DNA of 64,000 nucleotides from Escherichia coli (GCF_009931435.1 NZ_CP043414.1); one strand, 5' to 3'. Numbered from the stretch's first letter, positions 3,267 to 25,110 are shown. Translations and numbers: made by a program. Notes: generated by a model not told the origin, from the letters alone.

Positions 3267-3359
3267 TGTGTCAGGTAGCGTTTCGCGATGACGGGACGTT
3301 GCCTTTTCGGCTTCTCAACCGGGAAGCCGTTCTTATTACCGGACAATGAAGGGGTAAAG

Positions 3360-6311: not shown

Positions 6312-6317
6312 CGTGCT

Positions 6318-6423: not shown

Positions 6424-6456
6424 ATCAGACAAATTCAACTCGTTACGAGTATCCCG

Positions 6457-7032: not shown

Positions 7033-7048
7033 AAATTATCCTTATTAT

Positions 7049-7309
7049 TTATCCAAAGCGGTAGGTGATGCCGAATCCGGAAGGCGGATAGCGCCACTGT
7101 TGTAGGTTTTTTTCATCACACAGTAAACGGCAGGTGCCACACTCCAGGCAGCCGCGATAATCAACGCGTAAGTCGCCTTCCGGCGTGAGCGAAAAAAGAC
7201 CAGCCGGACAAGCGTTAATCAACCGTTCTGCCGTCTGGCGCTCAACGGAGTCTGCCGGAACAATATGTGGCGCATCAGCAGCGCGCCAGAGATTACGGGC
7301 TACAGACAT
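7049..7309 (-). CDS. ygcO: Ferredoxin-like protein (FixX family, 86 aa)
   Basis: ORF-track frame 7049..7345; start taken at internal ATG (MSVARNLW...) with AGGAG upstream. C-terminal CxxCxxC cluster (GCLECGTCRLLC). Confidence 0.75.
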   Translation of the reverse strand: MSVARNLWRAADAPHIVPADSVERQTAERLINACPAGLFSLTPEGDLRVDYRGCLECGTCRLLCDEKNLQQWRYPPSGFGITYRFG

Positions 7310-8571
7310 CGAATACTCCTGACAACATCGCCCGCCAGATGCCACAGGCCATGACGACGTAAATGACGCCAGAGCAACTGACGCAGCGGCGGAACAGGTT
7401 TATCACCCTGATCCCATAAATCACGGGAAATATCCTGCATTAACACAGGCCACTTACGGTACCATCCAGGGCGTTGCAAAAGCGCCGGAACATGCTGATA
7501 GCGCTGTAGAACATCCCACAGCAGGCTGCGCTCTACGTTGTAATGATAAAGCGGAAACAGATTTTGCGGCTCGCGGTGCTGGCAGGCGCTTATCAGCGTT
7601 TGTGCCGCCGCCTGTGCGCCAGCCAGCGCCATATCCATGCCGCGCACGGAAATTCCGGTATTGACGCAACTGCGCAACGTATCGCCCACCAGCAGCCAGC
7701 CGTTACCGGCGTATTGCACCGGCATACTGTGCAAGCCACCTTCTGGCACCAGATGCGCACCATACTCCAGTGATTCCGTGTTTTTGATAAGCGGGCGCAC
7801 TGCCGGATGCGTTTTAAAGCGAGCCAGCAGCTCGCTTGCCGGAACACGACTTTGCGTAAGTGAAGAGAGCGGGCAAACAATCCCTAACGAGAGCGTTTGT
7901 TGATTAGTATAAAGAAATGCGCCGCCGGGTAAGTCATCACAGATTCCGCCGCTGAACAGCAACGCTGCGCCTTCGTTATTCTCCAGATGAAAACGTTCTT
8001 CAATAGCGGATGTTTCCAGTGAAAGAACTTCTTTGATCCCCAACGCCATCGCTTCGCCAGCAGGACGAGTCACTAACCCGTGACGCTCAGCCAGGACGCT
8101 GTTGGCACCTTCTGCCAGCGCCACATAACGGGCGCGGAGAATATCGTCACCGCAAATGACACCACACACCCTGCCGTTTTCTTCATACAGCGCATCTACC
8201 GTCGCACCAGGGATGCATTCGACACCTTCTTTTTCGGCTTCGGCAACCAGCCACGGATCGAACCGTGCACGTAATACGCTCCAGGATTCACCGCCGGGCT
8301 GTAAGCTGGAAAACGTCGTTGCGCCATCCGGCGTTAGCAGAGAAAGACTTTCGTGAGTGATGCGTCGTTCAAGAGGCGCGGTCAGGTGAAACTGAGGGAG
8401 GAGTTCCGCGAGCGCATGGGTGTATAAACGCCCGCCGGAAAGGTTTTTACTGCCGGGAATTTCAGCGCGTTCCAGTAACAGAACGGATAAACCTGCCCGC
8501 GCGCAGCGTAAAGCACAAGCGGTGCCTGCTATACCCGCACCAATAATAATAATGTCGCAGTCGTCTTCCAT
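7300..8571 (-). CDS. ygcN: FAD-dependent oxidoreductase (FixC family, 423 aa)
   Basis: ORF-track frame 7300..8601 (GTG); start taken at ATG 8571 (MEDDCDIIIIGAGIAG... dinucleotide-binding motif). Confidence 0.8.
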   Translation of the reverse strand: MEDDCDIIIIGAGIAGTACALRCARAGLSVLLLERAEIPGSKNLSGGRLYTHALAELLPQFHLTAPLERRITHESLSLLTPDGATTFSSLQPGGESWSVLRARFDPWLVAEAEKEGVECIPGATVDALYEENGRVCGVICGDDILRARYVALAEGANSVLAERHGLVTRPAGEAMALGIKEVLSLETSAIEERFHLENNEGAALLFSGGICDDLPGGAFLYTNQQTLSLGIVCPLSSLTQSRVPASELLARFKTHPAVRPLIKNTESLEYGAHLVPEGGLHSMPVQYAGNGWLLVGDTLRSCVNTGISVRGMDMALAGAQAAAQTLISACQHREPQNLFPLYHYNVERSLLWDVLQRYQHVPALLQRPGWYRKWPVLMQDISRDLWDQGDKPVPPLRQLLWRHLRRHGLWHLAGDVVRSIRCL

Positions 8572-8648
8572 GTCATGCCCCAGATATCCAGAGCGCAACA
8601 CCCTAACATAGCGTTACTTAAGGGAAATTGACCGCCGACACACTCTTA

Positions 8649-9014
8649 TCATTCGCCGCGATAGATGCAACCTGCGGTGCAGGTTTCTTTCACCATAACC
8701 GCACTTAACAGCGGAACAACCGGTTTAACCTGATTCCAAATCCATTTTGCTAAAACCTCGCTGGTCGGGTTTTCCAGGCCAGGAATATCATTGAGATAAT
8801 AGTGATCGAGGCGATCATAGGTTGGTTTAAATGCCGCTTTCAGTTCAGCGAAATCGATAATCCAGCCCGTATGCGGATCGACTTCCCCGGTAATTTCCAG
8901 TCGCACCATAAAGGAATGCCCGTGCAGGCGACCACATTTATGTCCTTCCGGGACGTGTGGTAAGCGGTGAGCGGCTTCGAAGGTGAAATCTTTAAATAAC
9001 GTGGTGGACATCAT
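8649..9014 (-). CDS. queD: 6-carboxy-5,6,7,8-tetrahydropterin synthase (121 aa)
   Basis: ORF-track frame 8649..9098; start at [20 protein letters not shown]... matches the QueD N-terminus as I recall it. Confidence 0.9.
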
Positions 9015-9329
9015 AATTTCTCTACATGACGATAAAACCGCCGTAGAGTACCGGAAAGGCTTTTTTTTCGCATTATCTAAAACGACTTTGTTGCGCAAAA
9101 TCGCTGATTTATCTTAATGATTGGCTAAATTCATTTGTTTTTCATTGGGTTGGTTAATCTGTTTTGTTGTTAAAGACTATTGCTAAAACAGGTTAGTCGA
9201 TTTGGTTATTAGTTATCGCTATCCCGTCTTTAATCCACACCGTTCACCCCGTTAACCTTACCTTCTCTTCTGTTTTATGGGCGCTGACAGGGCGCAGAAA
9301 CAGCTTTGCTTACTGGAACATAACGACGC

Positions 9330-11135
9330 ATGACGACACAGGTCCCACCTTCCGCGTTGCTTCCGTTGAACCCGGAGCAACTGGCACGCCTTCAGGCGGC
9401 CACGACCGATTTAACTCCCACCCAGCTTGCCTGGGTTTCTGGCTATTTCTGGGGCGTGCTCAACCAACAGCCTGCTGCGCTTACAGCGACGCCAGCGCCC
9501 GCCCCCGCCGCAGAAATGCCGGGTATAACTATTATCTCCGCTTCGCAAACCGGCAATGCGCGCCGGGTTGCTGAAACATTACGCGATGATTTATTAGCGG
9601 CAAAACTGAACGTTAAGCTGGTGAACGCGGGCGACTATAAATTCAAACAAATCGCCAGCGAAAAACTGCTCATCGTGGTGACGTCAACGCAAGGTGAAGG
9701 GGAACCGCCGGAGGAGGCCGTCGCGCTGCATAAGTTCCTGTTCTCCAAAAAAGCGCCGAAGCTGGAAAACACCGCGTTTGCTGTGTTTAGTCTCGGCGAT
9801 AGCTCTTATGAATTTTTCTGCCAGTCCGGGAAAGATTTTGACAGCAAGCTGGCGGAACTGGGCGGTGAACGCCTGCTCGACCGTGTCGATGCCGACGTTG
9901 AATACCAGGCTGCTGCCATCGAGTGGCGCGCCCGCGTGGTTGATGTTCTGAAGTCCCGTACGCCTGTCGCGGCACCTTCGCAATCCGTCGCTACTGGCGC
10001 GGTAAATGAAATCCACACCAGCCCGTACAGCAAAGACGCGCCGCTGGTGGCGAGCCTCTCTGTTAACCAGAAAATTACCGGGCGTAACTCTGAAAAAGAC
10101 GTTCGCCATATCGAAATTGACTTAGGTGACTCGGGCCTGCGTTACCAGCCGGGTGACGCGCTGGGCGTCTGGTATCAGAACGATCCGGCACTGGTGAAAG
10201 AACTTGTCGAACTGCTGTGGCTGAAAGGCGATGAACCTGTCACCGTCGAGGGCAAAACGTTACCTCTGAACGAGGCCCTACAGTGGCACTTCGAACTGAC
10301 CGTCAACACCGCCAACATCGTTGAGAACTACGCCACGCTTACCCGCAGTGAAACGCTGCTGCCGCTGGTGGGCGATAAAGCGAAGTTACAGCATTACGCC
10401 GCGACGACGCCGATTGTCGATATGGTGCGTTTCTCTCCGGCACAGCTTGACGCTGAAGCCCTCATTAACTTGCTGCGCCCGCTGACGCCGCGCCTGTATT
10501 CCATCGCCTCCTCGCAGGCGGAAGTCGAGAACGAAGTACACGTCACCGTTGGTGTCGTTCGTTATGACATTGAAGGCCGCGCCCGTGCCGGTGGTGCCTC
10601 TAGTTTCCTCGCGGATCGTGTGGAAGAAGAGGGCGAAGTCCGCGTCTTTATCGAACATAACGACAACTTCCGTCTGCCAGCCAACCCGGAAACGCCGGTG
10701 ATTATGATTGGTCCAGGCACCGGCATCGCGCCGTTCCGCGCCTTTATGCAGCAACGTGCTGCTGACGAAGCGCCGGGTAAAAACTGGCTGTTCTTTGGCA
10801 ACCCACACTTTACGGAAGATTTCCTCTATCAGGTGGAGTGGCAGCGCTACGTCAAAGAGGGCGTGCTGACACGTATCGATCTTGCCTGGTCGCGCGATCA
10901 AAAAGAAAAAATTTACGTACAAGACAAACTGCGCGAACAGGGCGCAGAGCTGTGGCGCTGGATCAATGACGGAGCCCACATTTATGTCTGCGGCGACGCT
11001 AATCGCATGGCGAAAGACGTTGAACAGGCACTTCTGGAAGTGATTGCCGAATTTGGTGGCATGGACACCGAAGCGGCGGATGAATTTTTAAGTGAGCTGC
11101 GCGTAGAGCGCCGTTATCAGCGAGATGTCTACTAA
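9330..11135 (+). CDS. cysJ: Sulfite reductase [NADPH] flavoprotein alpha subunit
   Basis: ORF track 9330..11135; N-terminus [24 protein letters not shown]... is CysJ, with flavodoxin and FAD/NADPH domains. Confidence 0.95.
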
Positions 11136-12920: not shown

Positions 12921-13655
12921 ATGTCCAAACTCGATCTAAATGCCCTGAACGAACTGCCGAAGGTAGATCGCATTCTGGCGCTGGCGGAAACTAACGCCGA
13001 GCTTGAAAAACTGGATGCTGAAGGCCGTGTTGCCTGGGCGCTGGATAATCTGCCCGGTGAATATGTGCTTTCTTCCAGCTTCGGTATCCAGGCGGCGGTT
13101 AGTCTGCATCTGGTGAATCAGATTCGCCCGGATATTCCGGTGATCCTCACCGATACCGGTTATCTGTTTCCGGAAACCTACCGCTTTATTGACGAGTTAA
13201 CGGACAAACTCAAGCTCAACCTGAAAGTGTACCGCGCTACCGAAAGCGCCGCCTGGCAGGAAGCACGCTACGGCAAACTGTGGGAGCAGGGCGTTGAAGG
13301 CATTGAAAAGTACAACGATATCAACAAAGTCGAACCGATGAACCGGGCGCTGAAAGAACTGAACGCACAAACGTGGTTTGCTGGCCTGCGCCGTGAACAA
13401 TCCGGCAGCCGCGCTAATTTACCGGTGTTGGCAATTCAGCGTGGCGTATTTAAAGTGCTGCCGATTATCGACTGGGATAACCGAACTATTTATCAGTATC
13501 TGCAAAAACATGGCCTGAAATATCACCCATTATGGGACGAAGGATATTTATCGGTTGGTGATACCCATACAACCCGTAAATGGGAACCTGGTATGGCGGA
13601 AGAAGAAACGCGTTTCTTTGGCTTAAAAAGGGAATGTGGGCTGCACGAAGGGTAA
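12921..13655 (+). CDS. cysH: Phosphoadenosine phosphosulfate (PAPS) reductase (244 aa)
   Basis: ORF-track frame 12759..13655 runs through the REP element; start taken at ATG 12921 ([15 protein letters not shown]...) behind GAGGAA. Confidence 0.95.
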
Positions 13656-13710: not shown

Positions 13711-13918
13711 TGCGAGCCGCATTCCGGCATTTAAACATGAATATAGCAGGGGAAATCAACAGTTATAGAATGGCGTCGGGTGCTTGAGGCTGTCTGGCGT
13801 TGAGCATTCGCGAGGTTCCAGATGGACAAAAGCCCCGGGCGATATTTCTATCAACCTGAGGCTCGCGTTCGAACGTAGCAATTCGAATGTTAGTCTCTTC
13901 TTTGCAGGGAGGCAAGAC

Positions 13919-14071
13919 ATGCTGACAAAATATGCCCTTGTGGCAATCATCGTACTGTGTTGTACAGTACTGGGATTCACGCTGATGGTAGGCGACTCGT
14001 TGTGTGAGTTGAGTATCAGAGAACGTGGTATGGAGTTTAAGGCAGTTCTCGCTTACGAACCGAAGAAGTAG
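13919..14071 (+). CDS. Hok/Gef-family type I toxin (50 aa, HokE-like); likely the hok of a hokX/sokX-type locus
   Basis: [50 protein letters not shown] has a single TM helix and the Hok signature SLCE...AYE. GGGAGG sits 6 nt before the ATG. Confidence 0.7.
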
Positions 14072-14076
14072 CCACC

Positions 14077-14098
14077 ACGCGGGGGTAAAACCCCGCGT
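14077..14098 (+). other. GC-rich stem-loop at the 3-prime end of the hok transcript
   Basis: acgcgggg gtaaaa ccccgcgt, an 8-bp perfect stem immediately after the hok stop. Confidence 0.4.
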
Positions 14099-14109
14099 AT
14101 TGAATTGTG

Positions 14110-14309
14110 ATGGTTTGGTCTCCTGCACCCTTTTTTTCATTTATATTGTTTTTGTGAATATTATGCCTGTGTTTATTATTTATATATATCACAGATGAAA
14201 ATCATTGAATTATTCATAATGTAAATATTTTATTGAACGATATATATCACAGATAATTTTTAATATATGCGTAAATATCCTTTAAGTTTTACTGAAGGAT
14301 AAAAACATT
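14110..14309 (+). promoter_or_regulatory. AT-rich cas3 upstream region with a tandem direct repeat
   Basis: About 200 bp of very AT-rich sequence; atatatatcacagat occurs twice about 60 bp apart (near 14182 and 14242). Confidence 0.35.
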
Positions 14310-16967
14310 GTGACTTTCTTTGATTTCTGGGGAAAAACCCGACGTGGCGAGAAAGAGGGTGGCGACGATTATCACCTTCTTTGCTGGCATTCGCTGGATG
14401 TAGCCGCGATAGGCTATTTAATGGTCAAAAACAACTGTTTCGGGCTGGCTGACTATTTTCGTCAATTAGGTTTCGCTGACACGGATCAGGCAGCACAATT
14501 TTTCGCCTGGTTGTTGTGCTGGCACGATACTGGAAAATTTGCCCGCTCATTTCAGCAACTTTACCTGCACCCACAACTCAAGGTTCCGGAAGGCGCAAGA
14601 AAGAATTACGAAAAGATCTCTCATTCAACGCTGGGTTACTGGTTGTGGCATCATTATTTAATTGAATGTGAAGAGTTGCTTCCTTCATCTTCACTCTCTT
14701 TGCGCAAACTTAAACGAGTAATAGATATGTGGATGCCCGTGACGACCGGGCATCATGGTCGGCCTCCTGACCGTATCGATGAACTGGACAACTTTCTGCC
14801 TGAAGACAAAGCTGCCGCACGGGATTTTCTCCTTGAAATCAAGGTACTGTTTCCGCTCATCGAGATCCCTACATTCTGGGATGATGACGAGGGCGTTGAA
14901 CTTATAAAACATTTTTCCTGGTATATCTCTGCAACCGTCGTACTCGCAGACTGGACGGGATCGTCAACGCGGTTTTTTCCACGCGTTGCACAGGCAATGG
15001 ATATTAAAGATTACTGGCAGAAGGCTTTAGTTCAGGCTCAAAACGCATTAACCGTCTTTCCCCCAAAAGCAGAAAGCGCGCCTTTCACTGGAATTAATAC
15101 GCTGTTTCCTTTTATTGAGAACCCAACACCGTTACAGCAAAAGGTGTTGGATCTGGATATCAGCCAGCCAGGACCACAGTTGTTTATTCTGGAAGATGTG
15201 ACTGGCGCAGGTAAAACAGAAGCGGCGCTTATCCTGGCGCACAGGTTGATGTCTGCGGGGAAAGCACAGGGTTTGTTTTTTGGCCTGCCAACAATGGCAA
15301 CGGCCAATGCCATGTACGATAGGCTGGTAAAAACCTGGCTTGCTTTCTATTCGCCACAATCCCGCCCCAGCCTGGTGCTGGCACACAGCGCTCGTTCGCT
15401 AATGGATCGCTTTAACGCATCGCTGTGGTCTGGTGATTTTGTGGGGTCAGAAGAACCGGATGAACAAGCGTTCAGTCAGGGATGTGCGGCCTGGTTTGCT
15501 GACAGTAACAAGAAGGCGTTGCTGGCTGAAATTGGCGTCGGCACGCTGGATCAGGCGATGATGGCGGTGATGCCGTTCAAACATAATAATCTGCGGCTTC
15601 TGGGGCTGAGTAACAAAATCCTGCTAGCCGATGAGATCCACGCCTGTGACGCTTATATGTCGTGCATTCTTGAAGGGCTGATCGAGCGGCAGGCGCGTGG
15701 CGGAAACAGCGTTATTTTGCTTTCTGCTACGTTGTCTCAACAGCAGCGTGACAAACTCGTCGCCGCCTTTGCGCGTGGTGCAGAGGGCCAGCAAGAAGCT
15801 CCGTTGCTGGAAAAAGATGATTATCCCTGGCTGACGCATGTCACGAAATCCGATGTGCATTCGCACCGGGTAGCGACGCGCAAAGACGTTGAGCGCAGCG
15901 TGAGTGTGGGTTGGCTTCATAGCGAACAAGAGTGTATTGCGCGTATCGAATCGGCGGTAAGTCAGGGGAAATGCATCGCCTGGATTCGGAATTCTGTCGA
16001 TGACGCCATCCAGGTTCATCGTCAGCTGCTTGCCCGCGGCGTCATTCCTGCTTCCAGCCTTTCACTTTTTCATAGCCGCTTTGCTTTCAGCGATCGCCAG
16101 CGAATTGAAACGGAGACGCTGGCACGCTTTGGTAAAGAAGACTGTTCACAGCGTGCCGGAAAAGTCCTCATTTGTACTCAGGTCCTGGAGCAGAGCGTCG
16201 ACTGCGACCTGGACGAAATGATTTCCGACCTTGCCCCTGTTGATTTACTGATCCAGCGAGCAGGGCGATTACAGCGACATATCCGCGATATTAATGGTCA
16301 GTTAAAGCGTGACGGTAAAGACGAGCGTCACCCTCCTGTATTGCTGATTCTGGCCCCCGTCTGGAACGACTCTCCGGGTGAAGAATGGTTTGGCTGTGCC
16401 ATGCGTAACAGTGCATTTGTCTATCCCGATCATGGGCGAATCTGGTTGACGCAGCGTGTGCTGCGTGAACAAGGCGCGATTCAGATGCCACACTCAGCCC
16501 GGCTTCTGATTGAATCAGTCTACGGTGAGGACGTGGTAATGCCGGAAGGGTTTGCCCGCAGCGAGCAGGAGCAAGTGGGCAAATACTACTGCGATCGTTC
16601 AATGGCTAATAAGTTTGTGCTGAACTTCAGGCCCGGCTATGCCGCCAATATCAACGATTACCTCCCGGAAAAACTGTCGACACGTCTGGCTGAAGAGTCT
16701 GTTTCCCTGTGGCTGGCTAGCTGTATTGGCGGTGTGGTGAAGCCTTATGCCACCGGTGCACACGCATGGGAAATGAGCGTTGTCAGAGTGCGCCAAAGCT
16801 GGTGGAAAAAACATCGGGATAAGTTTTCTTTACTGGAAGGGGATGCGTTCAGGCAGTGGTGCGTTGAACAGCGGCAAGATCCGGAGATGGCAAACGTGAT
16901 TTTGGTCACCGATGACGAAAGTTGTGGATATTCGGCTACGGAGGGATTGATTGGCAAGGTTGGTTGA
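14310..16967 (+). CDS. cas3: Type I-E CRISPR-associated nuclease/helicase Cas3 (885 aa)
   Basis: ORF track 14310..16967 (GTG start). HD motifs (LLCWHSLDVAA, WHDTGKF), Walker A (GAGKTEAAL) and DExH (DEIH) present. N-terminus resembles Salmonella-type Cas3 rather than K-12 YgcB (from memory). Confidence 0.9.
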   Translation: MTFFDFWGKTRRGEKEGGDDYHLLCWHSLDVAAIGYLMVKNNCFGLADYFRQLGFADTDQAAQFFAWLLCWHDTGKFARSFQQLYLHPQLKVPEGARKNYEKISHSTLGYWLWHHYLIECEELLPSSSLSLRKLKRVIDMWMPVTTGHHGRPPDRIDELDNFLPEDKAAARDFLLEIKVLFPLIEIPTFWDDDEGVELIKHFSWYISATVVLADWTGSSTRFFPRVAQAMDIKDYWQKALVQAQNALTVFPPKAESAPFTGINTLFPFIENPTPLQQKVLDLDISQPGPQLFILEDVTGAGKTEAALILAHRLMSAGKAQGLFFGLPTMATANAMYDRLVKTWLAFYSPQSRPSLVLAHSARSLMDRFNASLWSGDFVGSEEPDEQAFSQGCAAWFADSNKKALLAEIGVGTLDQAMMAVMPFKHNNLRLLGLSNKILLADEIHACDAYMSCILEGLIERQARGGNSVILLSATLSQQQRDKLVAAFARGAEGQQEAPLLEKDDYPWLTHVTKSDVHSHRVATRKDVERSVSVGWLHSEQECIARIESAVSQGKCIAWIRNSVDDAIQVHRQLLARGVIPASSLSLFHSRFAFSDRQRIETETLARFGKEDCSQRAGKVLICTQVLEQSVDCDLDEMISDLAPVDLLIQRAGRLQRHIRDINGQLKRDGKDERHPPVLLILAPVWNDSPGEEWFGCAMRNSAFVYPDHGRIWLTQRVLREQGAIQMPHSARLLIESVYGEDVVMPEGFARSEQEQVGKYYCDRSMANKFVLNFRPGYAANINDYLPEKLSTRLAEESVSLWLASCIGGVVKPYATGAHAWEMSVVRVRQSWWKKHRDKFSLLEGDAFRQWCVEQRQDPEMANVILVTDDESCGYSATEGLIGKVG

Positions 16968-17063
16968 TATGCCTGCGACAGGATTCTCTGAATAGTTGAT
17001 ACACAAAAAAGGATGGAAGGATGGATAACCGACCTGGGATGGTCTTTTTACGAGAGGATGCGT

Positions 17064-18626
17064 ATGAACTCGTTTTCACTTCTGACAACCCCGTGGTTGC
17101 CCGTTCGTTATAAAGACGGAACGACAGGCAAACTGGCGCCAGTCGATCTGGCGGATGAAAATGTTGTCGATATCGCTGCGCCGCGGGCAGATCTCCAGGG
17201 TGCGGCATGGCAGTTTTTGCTGGGACTACTACAAACCAGCTTCGCGCCCAAAAATCACGGTCGTTGGGATGATATATGGGAAGACGGACTGGAAGCTGAA
17301 AAGCTAAGGGAAGCATTGCTGTCTTTAGAACATGCTTTCCAGTTTGGCCCAGATTCCCCTTCATTTATGCAGGATTTCGAGGCGCTTACGGGAGATAAAG
17401 TTCCTGTCGCTTCGTTACTGCCTGAAATTCCCGGCGCTCAAACAACGAAGTTCAATAAAGACCACTTTATTAAGCGTGGCGTGACTGAACACATATGCCC
17501 TCATTGTTCCGCGTTAGCGCTGTTTTCCCTACAGTTAAATGCGCCGTCAGGCGGCAAAGGCTATCGCACCGGTTTGCGCGGCGGTGGGCCAATGACGACG
17601 CTGATTGAATTACAGGAATATCAGGGCAATCAACAAACACCCTTGTGGCGCAAACTGTGGCTCAACGTGATGCCGCAGGATGAATCTGACTTACCGCTAC
17701 CCAAAAAATTTGGCGATCTGGTTTTCCCCTGGCTTGGCCCGACGCGTACCAGTGAACTGGCCGGTGCGGTGGTAACTGATGATCAGGTCAACAAACTCCA
17801 GGCGTACTGGGGAATGCCTCGGCGCATACGTGTTGATTTTAATACCACGACAGTCGGCAACTGCGATATTTGCGGTGAGCAGAGCGACGCGCTCCTGAGC
17901 CTGATGACGACCAAAAATTACGGTGCGAATTATGCCATGTGGCAGCATCCCTTAACGCCCTACCGTATACCACTTAAAGAGGGCGGCGAGCTTTACTCGG
18001 TTAAACCACAACCGGGCGGTTTAATCTGGCGCGACTGGCTAGGACTTATCGAAACGGGTAAGTCAGAAAACAATACGGAACTTCCCGCGCTGGTGGTGAA
18101 ACTCTTTAATGCCAGCAGTCTGAAACAGGCAAAAGTGGGCCTGTGGGGATTTGGCTATGATTTCGACAACATGAAAGCGCGCTGTTGGTACGAACACCAT
18201 TTCCCGCTACTGCTCAATAAAAAAGAAGGCCAGATACCAAAGCTGCGGCTGGCTGCGCAAACGGCTTCACGGATTCTAAGTCTGTTACGGAGTGCATTGA
18301 AAGAAGCATGGTTCTCCGATCCAAAAGGTGCACGGGGTGATTTCAGTTTTGTGGATATCGACTTCTGGAACAAAACTCAGCATCGCTTCCTGAGGTTAGT
18401 GCGTCAAATTGAAGAAGGTCAGGAGCCGGATGAATTACTCAGCAAATGGCAAAAGGAAATGTGGTTATTCGCGCGTCAGGATTTTGACGAGCGGGTATTC
18501 ACTAATCCTTATGAGCCCGTTGATTTGAAACGCGTCATGACCGCGCGCAAGAAATATTTTACAACATCGGCGGAGAAGCAAAGTGCTAAAGCCGCCAGGG
18601 AGAAAAAGCAGGAGGCTGCTGAATGA
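17064..18626 (+). CDS. casA: Type I-E Cascade large subunit Cse1/CasA
   Basis: ORF-track frame 17013..18626; start taken at ATG 17064 (MNSFSLLTTPWLPV...) with GAGG 6 nt upstream. ATG 17058 is an alternative. Confidence 0.8.
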   Translation: MNSFSLLTTPWLPVRYKDGTTGKLAPVDLADENVVDIAAPRADLQGAAWQFLLGLLQTSFAPKNHGRWDDIWEDGLEAEKLREALLSLEHAFQFGPDSPSFMQDFEALTGDKVPVASLLPEIPGAQTTKFNKDHFIKRGVTEHICPHCSALALFSLQLNAPSGGKGYRTGLRGGGPMTTLIELQEYQGNQQTPLWRKLWLNVMPQDESDLPLPKKFGDLVFPWLGPTRTSELAGAVVTDDQVNKLQAYWGMPRRIRVDFNTTTVGNCDICGEQSDALLSLMTTKNYGANYAMWQHPLTPYRIPLKEGGELYSVKPQPGGLIWRDWLGLIETGKSENNTELPALVVKLFNASSLKQAKVGLWGFGYDFDNMKARCWYEHHFPLLLNKKEGQIPKLRLAAQTASRILSLLRSALKEAWFSDPKGARGDFSFVDIDFWNKTQHRFLRLVRQIEEGQEPDELLSKWQKEMWLFARQDFDERVFTNPYEPVDLKRVMTARKKYFTTSAEKQSAKAAREKKQEAAE

Positions 18627-19159
18627 GTATTGTAAAAGAGGAGCACAAAGCCACGCTGCGCAAATGGCACGAGGAATTGCAGGAAAAACGCGGCAATCGT
18701 GCCAGTCTGCGGCGTAGTACGACGGTTAATGATGTTTGTTTGTCAGAAGGGTTTCGTTCTCTGCTGATGCAGACCCACACGTTGTGGAAAGTTGAAGCGC
18801 AAGAGTGGCGTTTTACCGCACTGGCACTGGTCGCTGCAGTTAGCGCCAATGTAAAAGCCATTGATGAACGGCAGCCTTTTGCCGCGCAGCTGGCGGCAGT
18901 AATGTCAGAAGGGCGGTTTTCGCGCCTGTCGGCAGTAAAAACGCCGGATGATTTACTGCGCCAGTTACGTCGCGCGGTCAAATTATTAAACGGTTCCGTC
19001 AATCTTATCTCTTTGGCAGACGATATTTTCCGCTGGTGCCAGGAGAGTGACGACCTGCTCAACCATCACCGCCGTCAGCAGCGGCCAACAGAATTTATCC
19101 GTATCCGCTGGGCGCTGGAATATTACCAGGCTGGCGACGCCGATAACGAACAAAATTAA
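18623..19159 (+). CDS. casB: Type I-E Cascade small subunit Cse2/CasB
   Basis: ORF track; start overlaps the casA stop (ATGA) behind AGGAGG. Confidence 0.85.
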   Translation: MSIVKEEHKATLRKWHEELQEKRGNRASLRRSTTVNDVCLSEGFRSLLMQTHTLWKVEAQEWRFTALALVAAVSANVKAIDERQPFAAQLAAVMSEGRFSRLSAVKTPDDLLRQLRRAVKLLNGSVNLISLADDIFRWCQESDDLLNHHRRQQRPTEFIRIRWALEYYQAGDADNEQN

Positions 19160-19173
19160 TAAAGGACTATCTC

Positions 19174-20229
19174 ATGACGACATTTATTCAGCTCCATTTG
19201 TTAACCGCTTACCCTGCAGCCAACCTTAACCGTGATGACACCGGTGCGCCGAAAACCGTGGTGCTGGGTGGAGCAACGCGTCTGCGCGTTTCCTCGCAAA
19301 GTCTGAAACGTGCGTGGCGCACTTCTGCACTTTTTGAACAGGCGCTGGCGGGCCATATTGGTATTCGTAGTGGGCGTATCGCGCGCGAGGCAGCAACTAT
19401 CATGATTGAGAAAGGAATCGAAGAAAAAAAAGCCATCGAATGGGCGGCAGATATTGCCGATTATCTTGGTAAAGCCAAAAAAGACAAAAAAACAAAAGAT
19501 CCGCTCACTAACGCTGAAACTGAACAGCTCGTCCATATCAGCCCTGCAGAATTTGACGCCGTAAAAGCGCTGGCCCATCAACTGGCAGAAGAAAAGCGCG
19601 CGCCAAAAGAGGACGATCTCGCTTTGTTACGTAAAGATCGTATGGCGGTAGATATCGCCATGTTTGGTCGTATGCTGGCGAATAAACCCGAGTTTAATGT
19701 TGAAGCCGCCTGTCAGGTCGCGCACGCGTTTGGTGTCAGTGAAACGATTGTCGAAGATGATTTTTTCACCGCCGTTGATGATTTGCGCCAGGCCTCTGAA
19801 GATGCTGGTGCAGGGCATCTTGGTGAAACTGGGTTTGGTTCTGCGCTGTTCTACACCTATATCTGCATTGATAAAGATCTGCTGGTCGAAAACCTCGGCG
19901 GTGACGAAGCATTAGCTAATCAGACCCTGCGCGCCTTTACGGAAGCAGCGTTTAAAGTTTCCCCAACCGGTAAACAAAACAGCTTTGCCAGCCGTGCCTA
20001 CGCCTCCTGGGCGCTGGCAGAAAAAGGCACCGAACAACCGCGTTCTCTGGCGGCGGCTTTCTATGAACCCATTAATGGCACACGTCAGTTAGATGTGGCA
20101 GTGCAGCGTATTACAACGCTTCGCGAAAACATGAATACGGTTTACGAACAGAAGACCGAATGCGCAAGTTTTGACGTGATGAACAAACAGGGAAGCATGA
20201 AGGACGTGCTGGACTTTATCTGCGCGTAA
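19174..20229 (+). CDS. casC: Type I-E Cascade backbone subunit Cas7e/CasC
   Basis: ORF track; 351 aa with N-terminal ...AANLNRDDTG... typical of Cas7e. Confidence 0.9.
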   Translation: MTTFIQLHLLTAYPAANLNRDDTGAPKTVVLGGATRLRVSSQSLKRAWRTSALFEQALAGHIGIRSGRIAREAATIMIEKGIEEKKAIEWAADIADYLGKAKKDKKTKDPLTNAETEQLVHISPAEFDAVKALAHQLAEEKRAPKEDDLALLRKDRMAVDIAMFGRMLANKPEFNVEAACQVAHAFGVSETIVEDDFFTAVDDLRQASEDAGAGHLGETGFGSALFYTYICIDKDLLVENLGGDEALANQTLRAFTEAAFKVSPTGKQNSFASRAYASWALAEKGTEQPRSLAAAFYEPINGTRQLDVAVQRITTLRENMNTVYEQKTECASFDVMNKQGSMKDVLDFICA

Positions 20230-20239
20230 GGGGCGGCTT

Positions 20240-20986
20240 ATGAGCCAATATCTGATTTTTCAGCTTCATGGGCCAATGGCATCCTGGGGCGTTGATGCAC
20301 CCGGTGAGGTGCGTCATACCCATGAACTGCCTTCGCGTTCAGCATTGCTGGGGCTGCTGGCTGCCGGGTTAGGGATACGGCGTGATGACACCGAATGCTT
20401 AAACGCGTTTAATCGCCACTATTCACTGGTGGTTTGCGCCAGCCGTAACCCGCGCTGGGCACGGGATTATCACACGGTCCAGATGCCAAAAGAGGTGCGT
20501 AAAGCGCGTTATTTCAGCCGTCGCGAAGAGTTGAGCGACCCTGATCTTCTAAGCGCGATTATCTCCCGGCGCGACTACTACACCGATGCCTGGTGGATGG
20601 TGGCCGTGGCAACAACAGCTGATGCGCCTTACAGCCTCGAACAGTTGCAGGAAGGTTTACGCCATCCGGTTTTTCCGCTTTATCTGGGGCGAAAAAGCCA
20701 TCCGCTGGCGTTACCCCTTGCGCCGTTACTGCTCGAAGGCAACGCGTCTGATGCCTTACGTACCGCATATCAACAGTATCAGGATCGTTTCCACGAACTA
20801 AAAGTCTCACTCCCGAAACTTCAGGATGAATGCTGGTGGGAAGGGGAACACGACGGCCTGGTCGCGAGCAAAATATTACGCCGCCGGGATGTTCCTTTAA
20901 ATCGTCAGCAGTGGCTGTTTGGGGAACGCACTGTCAATCAGGGGCCGTGGCTCAGCAAGGAGGAACCATGTACCTCTCAAGAATAA
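20240..20986 (+). CDS. casD: Type I-E Cascade subunit Cas5e/CasD
   Basis: ORF track; ...LHGPMASWG...SALLGLLAAGLGIRRDD... matches the Cas5e pattern. Confidence 0.85.
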   Translation: MSQYLIFQLHGPMASWGVDAPGEVRHTHELPSRSALLGLLAAGLGIRRDDTECLNAFNRHYSLVVCASRNPRWARDYHTVQMPKEVRKARYFSRREELSDPDLLSAIISRRDYYTDAWWMVAVATTADAPYSLEQLQEGLRHPVFPLYLGRKSHPLALPLAPLLLEGNASDALRTAYQQYQDRFHELKVSLPKLQDECWWEGEHDGLVASKILRRRDVPLNRQQWLFGERTVNQGPWLSKEEPCTSQE

Positions 20987-21614
20987 CCTTACATACCGGC
21001 CAGCTTTCCCCAGCGCAGTTGCTGCATCTGGTGGATCGCGGTGAATATGTGATGCATCAGTGGCTGTGGGATCTTTTCCCTGGCGGCAAAGAAAGGCAAT
21101 TTCTTTATCGTCGGGAAGAACTCCAGGGCGCGTTTCGCTTTTTTGTCCTGTCGCAGGAACGCCCGGCGGAAAGTGAAACGTTCACCATCGAATGCCGGTC
21201 ATTTGCGCCGGAGCTGCGTACCGGACAATCCCTTTTTTTCAACCTGCGAGCGAATCCAACAGTCTGTAAAGCGGGTAAGCGCCACGATCTGCTGATGGAG
21301 GCGAAACGGCAGGTGAGGGGGCAGGCGGAAGGAAGTGATGTCTGGTTGCATCAACAACAGGCGGCGCTGGGCTGGCTGGCTGCGCAGGGAGAGAGAAGTG
21401 GTTTTACACTGCTGGATACCTCGGTCGATGCCTACCGACAACAGCAACTGCGGCGGGAAAATGCCCGGCAACTGATCCAGTTCAGTAGCGTGGATTATAC
21501 GGGGATGCTGACGGTCACCGAGCCAGGGTTATTTCTGCAACGTCTCTGCCTGGGGTATGGCAAAAGCCGGGCGTTCGGCTGTGGTCTGATGTTAATCAAA
21601 CCCGGAGCAGAGGC

Positions 21615-21618
<4 letters not shown>
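20968..21618 (+). CDS. casE: CRISPR repeat endoribonuclease Cas6e/CasE (216 aa)
   Basis: ORF-track frame 20830..21618; start taken at ATG 20968 (MYLSRITL...) behind AAGGAGG, overlapping the casD 3-prime end. C-terminal GKSRAFGCGLM motif. Confidence 0.85.
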
Positions 21619-22828
<1,210 letters not shown>

Positions 22829-22924
22829 GTTACCCGTTCTTTAAAAATAAGGAAATGTTTGAATTTAGTTGGTAGATTGTTGATGTGGAATAAAATTGTT
22901 TAAAAACAGATACGTATGCTTAGT
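22829..22924 (+). promoter_or_regulatory. CRISPR leader (AT-rich, between cas2 and first repeat)
   Basis: About 96 bp of AT-rich sequence between the cas2 stop and repeat 1; position and composition fit a type I-E leader carrying the array promoter. Confidence 0.6.
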
Positions 22925-24051
22925 GTGTTCCCCGCGCCAGCGGGGATAAACCGTGGATTATGACGCCAGAGAGCTTCCTGTTTGCGTGTTCCCCGCGCCA
23001 GCGGGGATAAACCGCTGGCTAATAACATCCCACTGAATATTATTTCGTGTTCCCCGCGCCAGCGGGGATAAACCGAGGTGTGGCATGCGGGGAATTATGA
23101 TCCGGTAGTGTTCCCCGCGCCAGCGGGGATAAACCGTGACAACGGCCGGCCGCTCTTTTTGCGGTCATGTGTTCCCCGCGCCAGCGGGGATAAACCGATC
23201 ATCGGCATCATCTCGTGATACTCATCCGGCGTGTTCCCCGCGCCAGCGGGGATAAACCGCCCAGGCTTTACGTGAGCTGGCGGATGTGGCCGTGTTCCCC
23301 GCGCCAGCGGGGATAAACCATACGGTCAAGCGATATCAGGGGTACTGTGTCGTGTTCCCCGCGCCAGCGGGGATAAACCGGGCGCCGCATCTTTATCGTA
23401 AAGCATGTAAAGGTGTTCCCCGCGCCAGCGGGGATAAACCGACCGCTCACACCCAGACAAGCGCCACTAACGTGTGTTCCCCGCGCCAGCGGGGATAAAC
23501 CGAACGCCGCATCAGCTAAATACGCTAAAAAAATGTGTTCCCCGCGCCAGCGGGGATAAACCGCGGCTGATACTCAGGAGCAGGCCAGAGAGCGTGTGTT
23601 CCCCGCGCCAGCGGGGATAAACCGTACCACCTGTGTATTGAGTTACGTCGCCGGGGGTGTTCCCCGCGCCAGCGGGGATAAACCGGAGCTTCATCGGTGG
23701 TTCTGGGAGCAACGGGAGTGTTCCCCGCGCCAGCGGGGATAAACCGGCACAAGTGACTACATCAAGGATGGGGAATGGGTGTTCCCCGCGCCAGCGGGGA
23801 TAAACCGATTAACATTGCAATTGAATTGACGCGTATGAGGTGTTCCCCGCGCCAGCGGGGATAAACCGCAGGCAGCACGGCGGGTTTTGCCCGGATATTT
23901 GTGTTCCCCGCGCCAGCGGGGATAAACCGCAAAACCAATAGGTGCTTTCCACATTGCAGAAGTGTTCCCCGCGCCAGCGGGGATAAACCGCTCTCGGTTC
24001 TGGGGTACTGTTACCCATAACTGAGCTCCCCCGCGTCAGCGGGGGAACTCC
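22925..24051 (+). CRISPR. Type I-E CRISPR array: 19 repeats (18 canonical plus one degenerate terminal repeat), 18 spacers
   Basis: 29-nt repeat gtgttccccgcgccagcggggataaaccg at a 61-nt period from 22925; spacers 31-33 nt. Terminal repeat gagctcccccgcgtcagcgggggaactcc is degenerate; one internal repeat near 23292 ends in A instead of G. Confidence 0.95.
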
Positions 24052-24072
24052 CAGCTCCCATTTTCAAACGCC

Positions 24073-25110
24073 TCATGACGCCTTCACCAGCTCCTTCACC
24101 AGCGGTAGCATTATCCGCATAACGTCACGGCAGCGACGTTCTATTCTTCCAGGAAGCGCCTTATCAATATGCTGTTGATTATCAAGCCTTACATCATGCC
24201 AGCTATTTCCCGCCGGGAAGGCCGGTGTTTTTGCGCGTTGCTGATAACCATCCTTATTTCCAAGATTCCAGTTGGTCGCCTCCACCGAAAGTACCGCAAT
24301 ACCGGCTTTGTCGAAAACTTCTGCATCATTACAACACCCGGTGCCTTTCGGATAGTTTTTATTCAAACCTGGATTTGTTGTCGCTGCAATCCCATGATTA
24401 CGCGCAATTGCCAGCGCTCGATCACGGGTTAATTTCCTGACAGCCTCTGGTGTATTTACACCACTATTAAAATACAATTTATCGCCAACAATTAAGTTAT
24501 CGAGATTAATCACCAGCAGCGTATTTTTCTTTTCGGTGTCACTCATCCGTTTGAGTAAATTCTCAGCGCCTAATTTTCCTTCCTCTTCGCCGCTGGTCGC
24601 CACAAATCGAATACCATACTCGGTAGGCGTATTTTTCAGGCGTTCAGCCAGTTCCAGCATGACACCTAAACCTGCGGCGTTATCATCCATTCCTTGTAAC
24701 GTTAGCCCGCCGAGATTGGCATCGGCGTCAGCATCGCTCAGCGGGGCGTAAGTATCCAGATGCGCCATAATGATGATCTGCTGCGGCGCTTTGCCTTCAT
24801 GAGCGGCAATCACCGTACTTCCCGTCACGTTATGCCAGCTCTTGCGATTATCGCGGGCGGTGTAAATATATCGGCTATTAAATGTCCGAATATCACTGCG
24901 ATAACCCATCTGTTGAAACTGTTGGCGAATATAATCGGCAGATAACATTTCTGCAGGAGTTCCGGTCATGCGTCCCGGAAAGAAAGTAGCAATATGTCGT
25001 GCCTGTGTATTAGCAAAATCACCAGGTTTAGGTGACGAGGCGTGTACGGGGAGAATAAAGCATACGCCGAGCGCCAGGGCAGCGGTACGGTGGCGCAATG
25101 CGGAAAACAT
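24073..25110 (-). CDS. iap: Alkaline phosphatase isozyme conversion aminopeptidase
   Basis: ORF track; 345 aa with N-terminal signal peptide (MFSALRHRTAALALGVCFILPVHA) and M28-peptidase-like body. Confidence 0.9.
   Translation of the reverse strand: MFSALRHRTAALALGVCFILPVHASSPKPGDFANTQARHIATFFPGRMTGTPAEMLSADYIRQQFQQMGYRSDIRTFNSRYIYTARDNRKSWHNVTGSTVIAAHEGKAPQQIIIMAHLDTYAPLSDADADANLGGLTLQGMDDNAAGLGVMLELAERLKNTPTEYGIRFVATSGEEEGKLGAENLLKRMSDTEKKNTLLVINLDNLIVGDKLYFNSGVNTPEAVRKLTRDRALAIARNHGIAATTNPGLNKNYPKGTGCCNDAEVFDKAGIAVLSVEATNWNLGNKDGYQQRAKTPAFPAGNSWHDVRLDNQQHIDKALPGRIERRCRDVMRIMLPLVKELVKAS

What the first reader, a model, noticed from the sequence alone, without database searches (positions are those of the whole stretch)
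14310..24051. Type I-E CRISPR-Cas is the Salmonella-like variant, apparently joined to K-12-like cas1-cas2
The repeat is GTGTTCC...AAACCG rather than the K-12 GAGTTCC... form. Cas3 and Cse1 start MTFFDFWGK... and MNSFSLLTTPW..., unlike K-12 Cas3/Cse1 as I recall them, while Cas1 and Cas2 look nearly identical to K-12 YgbT/YgbF. That suggests a mosaic locus with divergent effector genes and conserved adaptation genes.
Basis: partly seen in the sequence, partly recalled or inferred. Interest (0 to 1): 0.45.

Follow-up and report, generated by a model that had tools for sequence, protein, structure and literature searches.

The report
Common non-K-12 E. coli CRISPR-Cas variant

Summary
Window 14310-24052 holds a complete type I-E CRISPR-Cas locus (cas3-cse1-cse2-cas7-cas5-cas6e-cas1-cas2, leader, 18 spacers) between cysH and iap in a divergent Escherichia. 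The raw observation is mostly right. The repeat is GTGTTCC..., and Cas3 through Cas6e are only 23-36% identical to K-12. "Nearly identical" Cas1/Cas2 is overstated: they are 84/86% identical in protein and 70-73% in DNA, with synonymous sites saturated. All genes match one lineage: 97-100% DNA identity to one E. coli strain, and 93-98% protein identity to E. albertii. Cas1/Cas2 are 95-96% identical to Salmonella, and they never group with K-12 (0 of 100 bootstraps). The contrast has two causes. Cas1-Cas2 are under housekeeping-grade constraint, with dN 3-7 times lower than the effector genes at equal dS. There was also ancient module exchange, but on the K-12 side. The pattern is already published: cas-EK vs cas-EO (2013), cas-STM vs cas-STY (2020), var. 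K-12 vs B-8552 (2025). The GTG repeat is not lineage-diagnostic, because K-12's own second array uses it. In passing, one E. coli genome (BS-04) proved to be a true hybrid in the reverse direction, with the crossover at cas1 nt 27-30.

The parts
12921..13655 (+). cysH, conserved left flank
   Evidence: 100% protein and 94.8% DNA identity to K-12 cysH. DNA homology with K-12 continues to about 13921.
13778..13934 (+). sok antitoxin RNA / hok mRNA leader region
   Evidence: Rfam RF01794, 103.2 bits against a gathering score of 59.
13919..14071 (+). hok toxin gene (50 aa), intact. Its ATG marks the left edge of the variant-specific cassette.
   Evidence: Pfam HOK_GEF PF01848, 39.1 bits. In the alignment, K-12 homology stops right after the hok ATG and K-12 lacks the ORF. 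The same gene is annotated 'Hok/Gef family protein' in EO-type E. coli.
14072..14309 (+). AT-rich region upstream of cas3 (GC about 0.38-0.43), presumed promoter/regulatory region
   Evidence: Composition profile. Conserved with EO-type E. coli and absent from K-12. A regulatory role is inferred and was not tested.
14310..16967 (+). cas3 (885 aa, GTG start): HD nuclease fused to an SF2 helicase
   Evidence: TIGR01596 cas3_HD 86.6 bits and TIGR01587 cas3_core 212.9 bits. The HD (CWHDTGKF), Walker A (GAGKT) and DEIH motifs are visible in the translation. 31% identical to K-12, 93% to E. albertii.
17064..18626 (+). cse1/casA/cas8e (520 aa), large Cascade subunit
   Evidence: TIGR02547, 610.7 bits. 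The 1563-nt length equals casA in EO-type E. coli and in var. B-8552 (PMC12736100). The segment 17251-17550 is the most diverged part in every within-lineage comparison.
18623..19159 (+). cse2/casB (178 aa), small Cascade subunit
   Evidence: TIGR02548, 102.6 bits.
19174..20229 (+). cas7/casC (351 aa), Cascade backbone
   Evidence: TIGR01869, 442.6 bits.
20240..20986 (+). cas5e/casD (248 aa)
   Evidence: TIGR01868, 160.3 bits.
20968..21618 (+). cas6e/casE (216 aa), pre-crRNA endonuclease
   Evidence: TIGR01907, 276.5 bits.
21615..22538 (+). cas1e (307 aa), integrase. DNA homology with K-12 resumes 12 nt into this gene (21627).
   Evidence: TIGR03638, 381.8 bits. The catalytic residues E141, H208 and D221 are invariant in the alignment with K-12. 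84% protein and 70.5% DNA identity to K-12, 95% protein identity to Salmonella. Boundary.
22535..22828 (+). cas2e (97 aa)
   Evidence: TIGR01873, 133 bits. 86% protein identity to K-12, 96% to Salmonella, 100% to E. coli 24A16CRGN010.
22829..22924 (+). CRISPR leader (96 nt), EO type ('leader-A')
   Evidence: Nearly identical to the O103:H2 leader and only partly conserved with the K-12 leader. Naming follows PMC3737337.
22925..24052 (+). CRISPR array: 18 repeats of 29 nt (GTGTTCCCCGCGCCAGCGGGGATAAACCG; the 7th ends in A), 18 spacers of 31-33 nt, and a degenerate terminal repeat at about 24024-24052 that is shared with K-12
   Evidence: Spacers 7, 14 and 17 match phages and phage-plasmids at 100%.
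24073..25110 (-). iap, conserved right flank
   Evidence: 98.6% protein and 94.4% DNA identity to K-12 iap.

Best explanation
[quoted passage not shown] B-8552. It sits at the usual cysH-iap site in a divergent Escherichia. It should work as a standard I-E system. Cas6e cuts the array transcript. Cse1-Cse2-Cas7-Cas5-Cas6e form Cascade around the crRNA. Cascade recognises AWG-flanked protospacers and recruits the Cas3 HD nuclease/helicase. Cas1-Cas2 insert new 32-nt spacers at the leader end.

Its cas1-cas2 are not a K-12 graft. They belong to the same lineage as its effector genes. Two things explain why Cas1/Cas2 are 84-86% identical to K-12 while the effector proteins are 23-36%:
1. Cas1-Cas2 of this I-E clade evolve under housekeeping-grade purifying selection. 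Their non-synonymous change is 3-7 times slower than in the effector genes at equal synonymous divergence. They stay 75-85% identical across Gammaproteobacteria.
2. Effector cassettes (cas3 to cas6e) have been exchanged, anciently and repeatedly, next to a resident cas1-cas2-leader-repeat unit. For the E. coli pair this exchange is detectable on the K-12 side, not in the window's lineage.

Shown here: gene content, family membership, lineage identity, selection statistics, tree incongruence, and protospacer matches with PAMs. Inferred, not shown: actual expression and activity in this strain.
For: Family membership: all eight proteins pass the NCBIfam I-E cut-offs.

Single lineage. Per-gene protein identity is 93-98% to E. 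albertii and 92-97% to Escherichia sp. MOD1-EC7003. DNA identity for cse1-cas2 is 97-100% to E. coli 24A16CRGN010. The sliding-window scan shows no K-12-like segment anywhere between 13.9 and 21.6 kb, and cas1-cas2 are only 68-76% identical to K-12. The window clusters with albertii/Salmonella/Citrobacter/Klebsiella in 100 of 100 bootstraps for both Cas1+Cas2 and Cas7+Cas5+Cas6e, and with K-12 in 0 of 100 for both.

No recent graft. pS of cas1/cas2 against K-12 is 0.82/0.75, as saturated as the effector genes (0.74-0.85), while the flanks have dS 0.23-0.27.

Constraint. Against Salmonella, C. youngae and K. grimontii, pS ranges from 0.61 to 0.85 across the eight cas genes with no systematic difference between cas1/cas2 and the effector genes (cysH is 0.60). 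But dN is 0.030-0.056 for cas1/cas2 against 0.076-0.22 for the effector genes.

Deep exchange. K-12 Cas1+Cas2 group with loci that carry the other effector class (UBA5654, C. portucalensis, Raoultella) in 100 of 100 bootstraps, while K-12 effectors group with C. amalonaticus, Erwinia and Pantoea in 100 of 100. Five within-genus pairs show the same conflict. The repeat follows the host and adaptation module, not the effector class.

A recent natural example. E. coli BS-04 joins a K-12-type cas3-cas6e to an EO-type cas1-cas2-leader-array, with the crossover at cas1 nt 27-30.

Function. Spacers 14 and 17 match one phage gene at 100% with ATG and AAG PAMs, and spacer 7 matches a phage tail gene at 100%.

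Literature. PMC3737337 defines cas-EK/cas-EO and their linked repeat and leader types. PMC7712790 describes cas-STM/STY. PMC12736100 Table 1 gives the same identities. PMC2886076 reports whole-locus replacement at this site. PMC6452270 describes in situ effector exchange.
Against: - Expression and activity were not tested. I-E loci in E. coli and Salmonella are typically H-NS-silenced (established knowledge, not tested here).
- The cas3 start is ambiguous: GTG at 14310 here, against an ATG 42 nt upstream in the O103 annotation. The closest E. coli relative has its cas3 annotated as 'frameshifted'.
- Trees are neighbour-joining on identity-based distances, not maximum likelihood.
- Synonymous saturation means the age of the cas1-cas2 split cannot be compared with that of the effector split.
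- The direction of the ancient exchange (K-12 side) rests on parsimony over 77 loci, one per species.
- Only two canonical PAMs were recovered.
Confidence: 0.88

Rival explanations
1. One reading: a relatively recent recombinant in which Salmonella-like effector genes were joined to K-12-like cas1-cas2.
For: Cas1 and Cas2 are 84% and 86% identical to K-12 while the other six proteins are 23-36%. DNA homology to K-12 begins exactly at the 5' end of cas1. A hybrid of the two variants does exist in nature, although in the reverse direction: BS-04.
Against: Synonymous sites of cas1/cas2 against K-12 are saturated (pS 0.75-0.82). Cas1/Cas2 are 95-98% identical to those of loci whose effector genes are also the window's closest relatives. 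WINDOW+K-12 is recovered in 0 of 100 bootstraps. The leader and repeat are EO type, not K-12 type. No EO-cas6e/EK-cas1 junction exists in 5,426 E. coli genomes.
Confidence: 0.02
2. Pure rate heterogeneity. The two E. coli variants are whole operons that diverged once and never exchanged modules. Cas1-Cas2 simply evolve much more slowly than the effector genes.
For: Within the window's lineage, dN of the effector genes is 3-7 times that of cas1 at equal dS. Against K-12 the ratio is 5-8 times. That is the same order of magnitude, so constraint alone predicts most of the contrast.
Against: K-12 Cas1+Cas2 nest among loci of the other effector class with 100% bootstrap support, while K-12 effectors nest elsewhere with 100%. 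At the same Cas1 identity (83-84%), Pectobacterium and Dickeya effectors are 41-57% identical to the window's (Cse2 lower, 33-38%), not 23-36%. Five within-genus pairs have 90-99% identical Cas1+Cas2 but about 30% identical effectors.
Confidence: 0.08
3. An ancient module exchange happened in the window's (EO/STM) lineage rather than in the K-12 lineage. That would make the window's type the deep mosaic.
For: An exchange event is symmetrical in principle. The ancestral state of the enterobacterial locus is not known.
Against: Within the window's effector class, adaptation and effector identities fall together smoothly (98/99, 97/96, 95/81, 92/80, 87/65, 85/50%), and both trees recover the same clade at 100%. 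K-12-class effectors are the ones found scattered next to locally related Cas1-Cas2 in Citrobacter, Marinomonas, Oceanospirillum and Methylophaga.
Confidence: 0.05

Closest known systems
E. coli cas-EO variant of type I-E (O157:H7 type; 'CRISPR-A/leader-A'; Diez-Villasenor et al. 2013, PMC3737337), equivalent to var. B-8552 (PMC12736100)
   Same: Same cysH-iap site, gene order and gene lengths (casA 1563, casB 537, cas7 1056, cas5 747, cas6 651, cas1 924, cas2 294 nt). Same GTG ('A-type') repeat and leader. AWG-type PAMs. 82-96% DNA identity per gene to O103:H2 and 97-100% to strain 24A16CRGN010 for cse1-cas2.
   Different: The host backbone is a divergent Escherichia, about 95% identical to K-12 and at best about 98% to any complete E. 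coli genome. The cse1-cse2 allele differs markedly from the O103 allele (82-85% DNA identity, dS 0.45-0.74). The array holds 18 spacers; in the sliding scan the array interior is only repeat-level similar (72-77%) to the arrays of the compared loci.
Salmonella cas-STM type I-E operon (PMC7712790)
   Same: Same effector class, repeat and architecture. Against S. enterica diarizonae, Cas1 is 95% and Cas2 96% identical, and Cas7 is 85%, Cse2 84%, Cas5 80%, Cas6e 77%, Cse1 75% and Cas3 69%. That paper assigns more than 600 Escherichia, Shigella and Klebsiella strains to this type.
   Different: Divergence is at genus level, with pS 0.63-0.80 in every gene, similar to cysH. The window is the Escherichia branch of the type, not a recent import from Salmonella.
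E. coli K-12 type I-E (cas-EK), the experimental model system
   Same: Same subtype, gene order, chromosomal site, 29-nt repeat (1 nt different), 32-nt spacers and terminal degenerate repeat. The Cas1 catalytic residues are conserved.
   Different: Effector proteins are only 23-36% identical with no DNA homology. Cas1/Cas2 are 84/86% identical with saturated synonymous sites. The K-12-specific NCBIfam models are not reached (Cas3 421 bits against a cut-off of 569; Cse1 103 against 576). hok is intact here and deleted in K-12. The cas3-cse1 spacer is 96 nt here and 414 nt in K-12. The acquisition motif is reported as CTT for K-12 and CWT for EO (PMC3737337).
In situ effector-module exchange next to a fixed adaptation module and array (Koonin & Makarova 2019, PMC6452270)
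   Same: Across 77 I-E loci, Cas1+Cas2 and the repeat follow host taxonomy while five effector classes are polyphyletic on that tree. BS-04 is a recent example within E. coli.
   Different: In these I-E loci cas6e moves with the effector cassette rather than staying with the adaptation module. The window itself shows no such exchange.

Membership tests
Type I-E CRISPR-Cas | Signature genes cse1 (cas8e) and cse2 are present | tested here: met
   TIGR02547 610.7 bits (cut-off 70) and TIGR02548 102.6 bits (cut-off 28.5).
Type I-E CRISPR-Cas | Operon order cas3-cse1-cse2-cas7-cas5-cas6e-cas1-cas2, with subtype-specific Cas7e, Cas5e, Cas6e, Cas1e and Cas2e | tested here: met
   ORF order. TIGR01869, TIGR01868, TIGR01907, TIGR03638 and TIGR01873 are all above their cut-offs.
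Type I-E CRISPR-Cas | Cas3 with an HD nuclease fused to an SF2 helicase | tested here: met
   cas3_HD 86.6 bits (residues 24-219) and cas3_core 212.9 bits (residues 292-662). The HD, GAGKT and DEIH motifs are in the translation.
Type I-E CRISPR-Cas | Adjacent array of 29-nt partly palindromic repeats with about 32-nt spacers, downstream of an AT-rich leader | tested here: met
   18 exact repeats at 60-62 nt spacing against 0 expected by chance. Spacers are 31-33 nt. The leader is 96 nt.
Type I-E CRISPR-Cas | Demonstrated crRNA processing, PAM-dependent interference and spacer acquisition | not testable with these tools
   Indirect evidence only: three spacers match phages and phage-plasmids at 100%, two of them with AAG or ATG PAMs.
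cas-EO / cas-STM variant of I-E | All eight cas genes are closest to EO/STM-type references | tested here: met
   (100 of 100 bootstraps in both modules).
cas-EO / cas-STM variant of I-E | A-type repeat (GTG... on the coding strand) with the cognate leader-A | tested here: met
   Repeat. The leader aligns almost identically to the O103:H2 leader. Definition from PMC3737337.
cas-EO / cas-STM variant of I-E | CWT (= AWG) acquisition/interference motif rather than strict CTT (= AAG) | tested here: inconclusive
   One ATG and one AAG protospacer, plus one non-canonical TCA. This is consistent with the motif, but n = 3.
   70.5% and 73.4% codon-aligned DNA identity, pS 0.82 and 0.75. The genuine EK/EO hybrid BS-04 shows 99.8-100% identity to its parents on each side.
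   0 of 100 bootstraps. K-12 groups instead with UBA5654, C. portucalensis and Raoultella in 100 of 100.
   The window has GTG repeats and an O103-like leader.

The most novel reading that the evidence does not exclude
In this clade of I-E systems, the cas1-cas2-leader-repeat unit acts as a vertically inherited docking platform under housekeeping-grade constraint. At least five effector cassettes (cas3 to cas6e), only about 30% identical to each other, have been swapped onto it repeatedly by homologous recombination. One crossover falls at the extreme 5' end of cas1, the first DNA shared between cassettes, and the other in the flank. Because every cassette reads the same repeat, the stored spacers stay usable after a swap. 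On this reading the window's EO cassette and K-12's EK cassette are alternative cartridges at one site, and strain BS-04 is a swap caught recently.
Probability: 0.55. Interest if true: 0.4.

Novelty: already known. Interest (0 to 1): 0.15.

Why it matters
For this window it matters little. It is the commonest I-E variant in E. coli, and both its contrast with K-12 and its linked repeat and leader type are already published.

Three points are useful to record:
1. K-12 is not representative of most E. coli I-E systems. Its effector proteins are only 23-36% identical to the common type, and its GAG repeat is the unusual form.
2. High Cas1/Cas2 identity should not be read as evidence of recombination. 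These two genes are as constrained as housekeeping genes.
3. Real EK/EO hybrids are extremely rare (1 in 5,426 genomes), and the crossover falls where DNA homology begins in cas1.

The wider pattern, in which adaptation module and repeat track the host while effector cassettes are swapped, fits the published idea that arms races with anti-CRISPRs drive effector exchange.

Tried and rejected
- I used chimeric junction queries to count hybrids by coverage. Coverage did not discriminate, because megablast extended through the ~74% identical cas1 half. I used identity of the full-length match instead.
- Pairwise blastn of whole loci was swamped by repeat-to-repeat hits. Only the first non-array HSPs were usable.
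- The Rfam scan at gathering threshold returned only sok, with no CRISPR repeat family, so it added nothing about the array.
- One literature query failed on punctuation, and one script failed on a file name. Both were rerun.
- I considered that the Cas1/Cas2 similarity to K-12 might reflect gene conversion from a second locus. The window contains no second array or other copies of the repeat, and synonymous sites are saturated, so I rejected this.
- I considered the window to be a recent import from Salmonella. I rejected this because pS against Salmonella is 0.63-0.80 in every gene, similar to cysH.
- I did not use the large protein-database searches, structure prediction or fold search. Family assignment was unambiguous without them.


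Full report
WHAT IS THERE

Window 14310-24052 is a complete type I-E CRISPR-Cas locus between cysH (12921-13655) and iap (24073-25110, minus strand). The genes are cas3 (14310-16967, GTG start), cse1 (17064-18626), cse2 (18623-19159), cas7 (19174-20229), cas5 (20240-20986), cas6e (20968-21618), cas1 (21615-22538) and cas2 (22535-22828). A 96-nt leader follows, then an array of 18 repeats and 18 spacers with a degenerate terminal repeat ending at 24052. All eight proteins pass the NCBIfam I-E cut-offs. The two models specific to K-12-type Cas3 and Cse1 are not reached. Upstream of cas3 there is an intact hok/sok module: Rfam sok at 13778-13934, and hok at 13919-14071 matching Pfam HOK_GEF. The flanking genes are about 95% identical in DNA to K-12. 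No complete E. coli genome exceeds about 98% identity, so the host is a divergent Escherichia lineage.

CHECKING THE OBSERVATION

The repeat is GTGTTCCCCGCGCCAGCGGGGATAAACCG, and K-12's iap-proximal array has GAG at the start instead. The difference is one base and does not mark a lineage, for two reasons. K-12's own ygcE-queE array uses the GTG form. The identical GTG repeat also sits next to K-12-class effector genes in Citrobacter amalonaticus, Erwinia endophytica and Pantoea. So K-12's GAG is the unusual form.

Against K-12, Cas3, Cse1, Cse2, Cas7, Cas5 and Cas6e are 31, 23, 27, 32, 36 and 30% identical, and Cas1 and Cas2 are 84 and 86%. "Nearly identical" is therefore an overstatement. 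In codon-aligned DNA, cas1 and cas2 are 70.5% and 73.4% identical. Their synonymous sites are saturated (pS 0.82 and 0.75), like those of the effector genes (0.74-0.85). The flanking genes have dS of only 0.23-0.27.

IS THE LOCUS A MOSAIC?

- Against E. albertii, all eight proteins are 93-98% identical, with dS 0.18-0.32 in every gene.
- Against E. coli 24A16CRGN010, cse1 to cas2 are 97-100% identical in DNA.
- Against S. enterica diarizonae, Cas1 and Cas2 are 95-96% identical and the effector proteins 69-85%.
- The window's Cas1/Cas2 are no closer to K-12 (84/86%) than to Pectobacterium or Dickeya (83-84% and 87-88%).
- In bootstrapped neighbour-joining trees of 77 loci, the window groups with E. 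albertii, Salmonella, Citrobacter and Klebsiella in 100 of 100 replicates for both Cas1+Cas2 and Cas7+Cas5+Cas6e. It groups with K-12 in 0 of 100 for both.
- A 300-nt sliding scan shows no K-12-like segment. K-12 homology stops at about 13921, right after the hok start codon (K-12 lacks the hok ORF). It resumes 12 nt into cas1 (21627) at only 68-76%, and returns to flank level at the shared terminal degenerate repeat.
- A junction of EO-type cas6e to K-12-type cas1 is absent from all 5,426 complete E. coli genomes; the best full-length match is 86.9%.

WHY ARE CAS1-CAS2 SO MUCH MORE CONSERVED?

There are two causes.

The first is constraint. Within the window's own lineage (against Salmonella, C. 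youngae and K. grimontii), synonymous divergence shows no systematic difference between genes: pS runs from 0.61 to 0.85 across the eight cas genes and is 0.60 for cysH. Yet dN is 0.030-0.056 for cas1/cas2, about the same as cysH, against 0.076-0.22 for the effector genes. That is a 3-7-fold rate difference. The window-versus-K-12 ratio is 5-8-fold, so constraint alone predicts most of the contrast. Cas1 of this clade remains 75-85% identical in Pectobacterium, Marinomonas, Methylophaga, Shewanella and even Bordetella and Parasutterella.

The second is ancient module exchange, detectable on the K-12 side.
- K-12 Cas1+Cas2 are 90-94% identical to those of Enterobacteriaceae UBA5654, Raoultella terrigena, C. 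portucalensis, Pluralibacter and Enterobacter BIGb0383. All of these carry the other effector class, about 30% identical to K-12's effectors.
- K-12's nearest effector relative, C. amalonaticus, has Cas1+Cas2 only 84% identical. Both conflicting groupings have 100% bootstrap support.
- Five within-genus pairs (Marinomonas, Oceanospirillum, Halopseudomonas, Alteromonadaceae, Citrobacter) have 90-99% identical Cas1+Cas2 but about 30% identical effectors.
- The repeat sequence follows the host and adaptation module, not the effector class.
- At the same Cas1 distance from the window (83-84% identity), Pectobacterium and Dickeya effectors are 41-57% identical (Cse2 lower, 33-38%), where K-12's are 23-36%.
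- Within the window's own class, the two modules diverge together smoothly. There is no sign of exchange in its own history.

A REAL HYBRID, ELSEWHERE

The reciprocal junction query found one genome, E. coli BS-04 (NZ_CP172819). There, cas3 to cas6e and the first 27-30 nt of cas1 are 99.9-100% identical to K-12. The rest of cas1, cas2, the leader and a GTG-repeat array are 99.8% identical to O103:H2. The crossover lies exactly where DNA homology between the two variants begins. An assembly artefact has not been excluded.

FUNCTIONAL HINTS

Spacers 14 and 17 match one DUF551 gene at 100%, 13 nt apart on the same strand. The match is in a Lederbergvirus and in roughly 91-121-kb plasmids of E. 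coli, Shigella and E. albertii, mostly typed non-mobilizable; I interpret these as phage-plasmids. The PAMs are ATG and AAG. This fits the AWG (= CWT) motif reported for this variant, and the close clustering is suggestive of primed adaptation (PMC3737337). Spacer 7 (31 nt) matches a phage tail gene at 100% with a TCA flank. The repeat upstream of it ends in A instead of G, as expected if the last PAM base is carried into the array. The Cas1 catalytic residues and the Cas3 HD, Walker A and DEIH motifs are present. Expression and activity remain untested.

COMPARISON WITH THE LITERATURE

- Touchon & Rocha 2010 (PMC2886076) found distinct Cas1 groups in Escherichia and Salmonella that are incongruent with the species tree, and whole-locus replacement at this site.
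- Diez-Villasenor et al. 2013 (PMC3737337) defined cas-EK (K-12; T-type repeat and leader; CTT motif) and cas-EO (O157:H7; A-type repeat and leader; CWT motif). The window is cas-EO.
- PMC7712790 reports the same pattern between the Salmonella cas-STM and cas-STY operons: cas1 is 82.5-87% identical in protein and the other genes are highly divergent. It places more than 600 Escherichia, Shigella and Klebsiella strains in the STM type.
- PMC12736100 (Table 1) gives practically the same identities and gene lengths as found here.
- Koonin & Makarova 2019 (PMC6452270) describe in situ exchange of effector modules next to a fixed adaptation module and array.

Among 5,426 complete E. coli genomes, about 2,400-2,650 carry this variant and about 1,170-1,220 carry the K-12 variant.

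VERDICT

This is an ordinary, intact, single-lineage cas-EO/cas-STM type I-E system. The "Salmonella-like" label is right and the mosaic claim is wrong. The feature is already known.

Noticed in passing
window 13778-14071: An intact hok/sok toxin-antitoxin module (Rfam sok 103 bits; 50-aa Hok, Pfam HOK_GEF) lies between cysH and cas3. K-12 keeps the sok/leader part, but its homology ends right after the hok ATG. The variant-specific cassette therefore starts at hok, not at cas3.
   Followed up: partly
window 23747-23778 (spacer 14) and 23930-23961 (spacer 17): These two spacers match the same DUF551 gene at 100%, 13 nt apart on the same strand. The match is in Escherichia phage vB_EcoP-611R6 and in many roughly 91-121-kb plasmids of E. 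coli, Shigella and E. albertii, mostly typed non-mobilizable and interpreted here as phage-plasmids. The PAMs are ATG and AAG. The clustering looks like primed adaptation.
   Followed up: partly
window 23292-23351 (7th repeat and spacer 7): The 7th repeat ends ...AACCA instead of ...AACCG, and its spacer is 31 nt. The 100% protospacer, in the minor tail protein M gene of phage Cyrano, is preceded by TCA. The odd terminal A matches the protospacer flank, as expected if the last PAM base is co-integrated.
   Followed up: partly
window 17251-17550 (cse1) and 17064-19159 (cse1-cse2): A segment of cse1 is the most diverged part of the operon in every within-lineage comparison (89% to the otherwise ~99-100% identical strain H1, and 74-78% to O103). 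Against O103:H2, cse1 and cse2 have dS 0.74 and 0.45, while the other cas genes have 0.15-0.27. This suggests distinct cse1-cse2 alleles recombining within the EO variant.
   Followed up: partly
L087 (E. coli BS-04, NZ_CP172819) 10516-10546: This is the only EK/EO hybrid among 5,426 complete E. coli genomes. K-12-type cas3-cas6e is joined to an O103-type cas1-cas2-leader-array, with the crossover at cas1 nt 27-30. An assembly artefact is not excluded.
   Followed up: yes
L004 (Pseudocitrobacter vendiensis) vs window 18451-22828: From the 3' end of cse1 to cas5, and in cas2, DNA identity to the window is 99.7-100%. The adjacent iap is only about 74% identical. This indicates a recent transfer of this cas cassette between genera into the equivalent site.
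   Followed up: partly
L002 ('Bacillota bacterium' MAG) and L081 ('Collinsella sp.' MAG): Short contigs in these Gram-positive MAGs carry Escherichia-type I-E cas genes at 86-98% DNA identity to the window. This is most likely binning contamination.
   Followed up: no
L066 9177-9998; also L067, L045, L051, L063, L065, L080, L035: A ~273-aa KilA-N domain gene (PF04383, 77.7 bits) lies immediately upstream of cas1 in marine gammaproteobacterial I-E loci. It is 74-91% identical across four effector classes, so it travels with the adaptation module. Degraded remnants occur in L048, L049, L053 and L079. It is not present in the window.
   Followed up: partly
L067 (Marisediminitalea aggregata) 2575-9150: The tblastn coordinates suggest a rearranged effector gene order (cas3, cas6e, cse2, cas7, cas5, cse1), in a fifth effector class that has 98.8% identical Cas1+Cas2 to a neighbouring standard locus. 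Not verified.
   Followed up: no
window 14268-14312: The window and strain 24A16CRGN010 have one more T at 14287-14290 (TTTT, where O103:H2 has TTT). This puts the ATG used in the O103 annotation (42 nt upstream) out of frame. The same gene is flagged 'frameshifted' in 24A16CRGN010. The 885-aa ORF from GTG 14310 still covers the whole HD domain, so cas3 is probably intact.
   Followed up: partly
window 42000-50000: The mutS-ygbI-pphB region matches complete E. coli genomes at no more than 97.9% identity and only about 87% coverage. So the host is a divergent Escherichia lineage and has an indel of roughly 1 kb here relative to E. coli.
   Followed up: no
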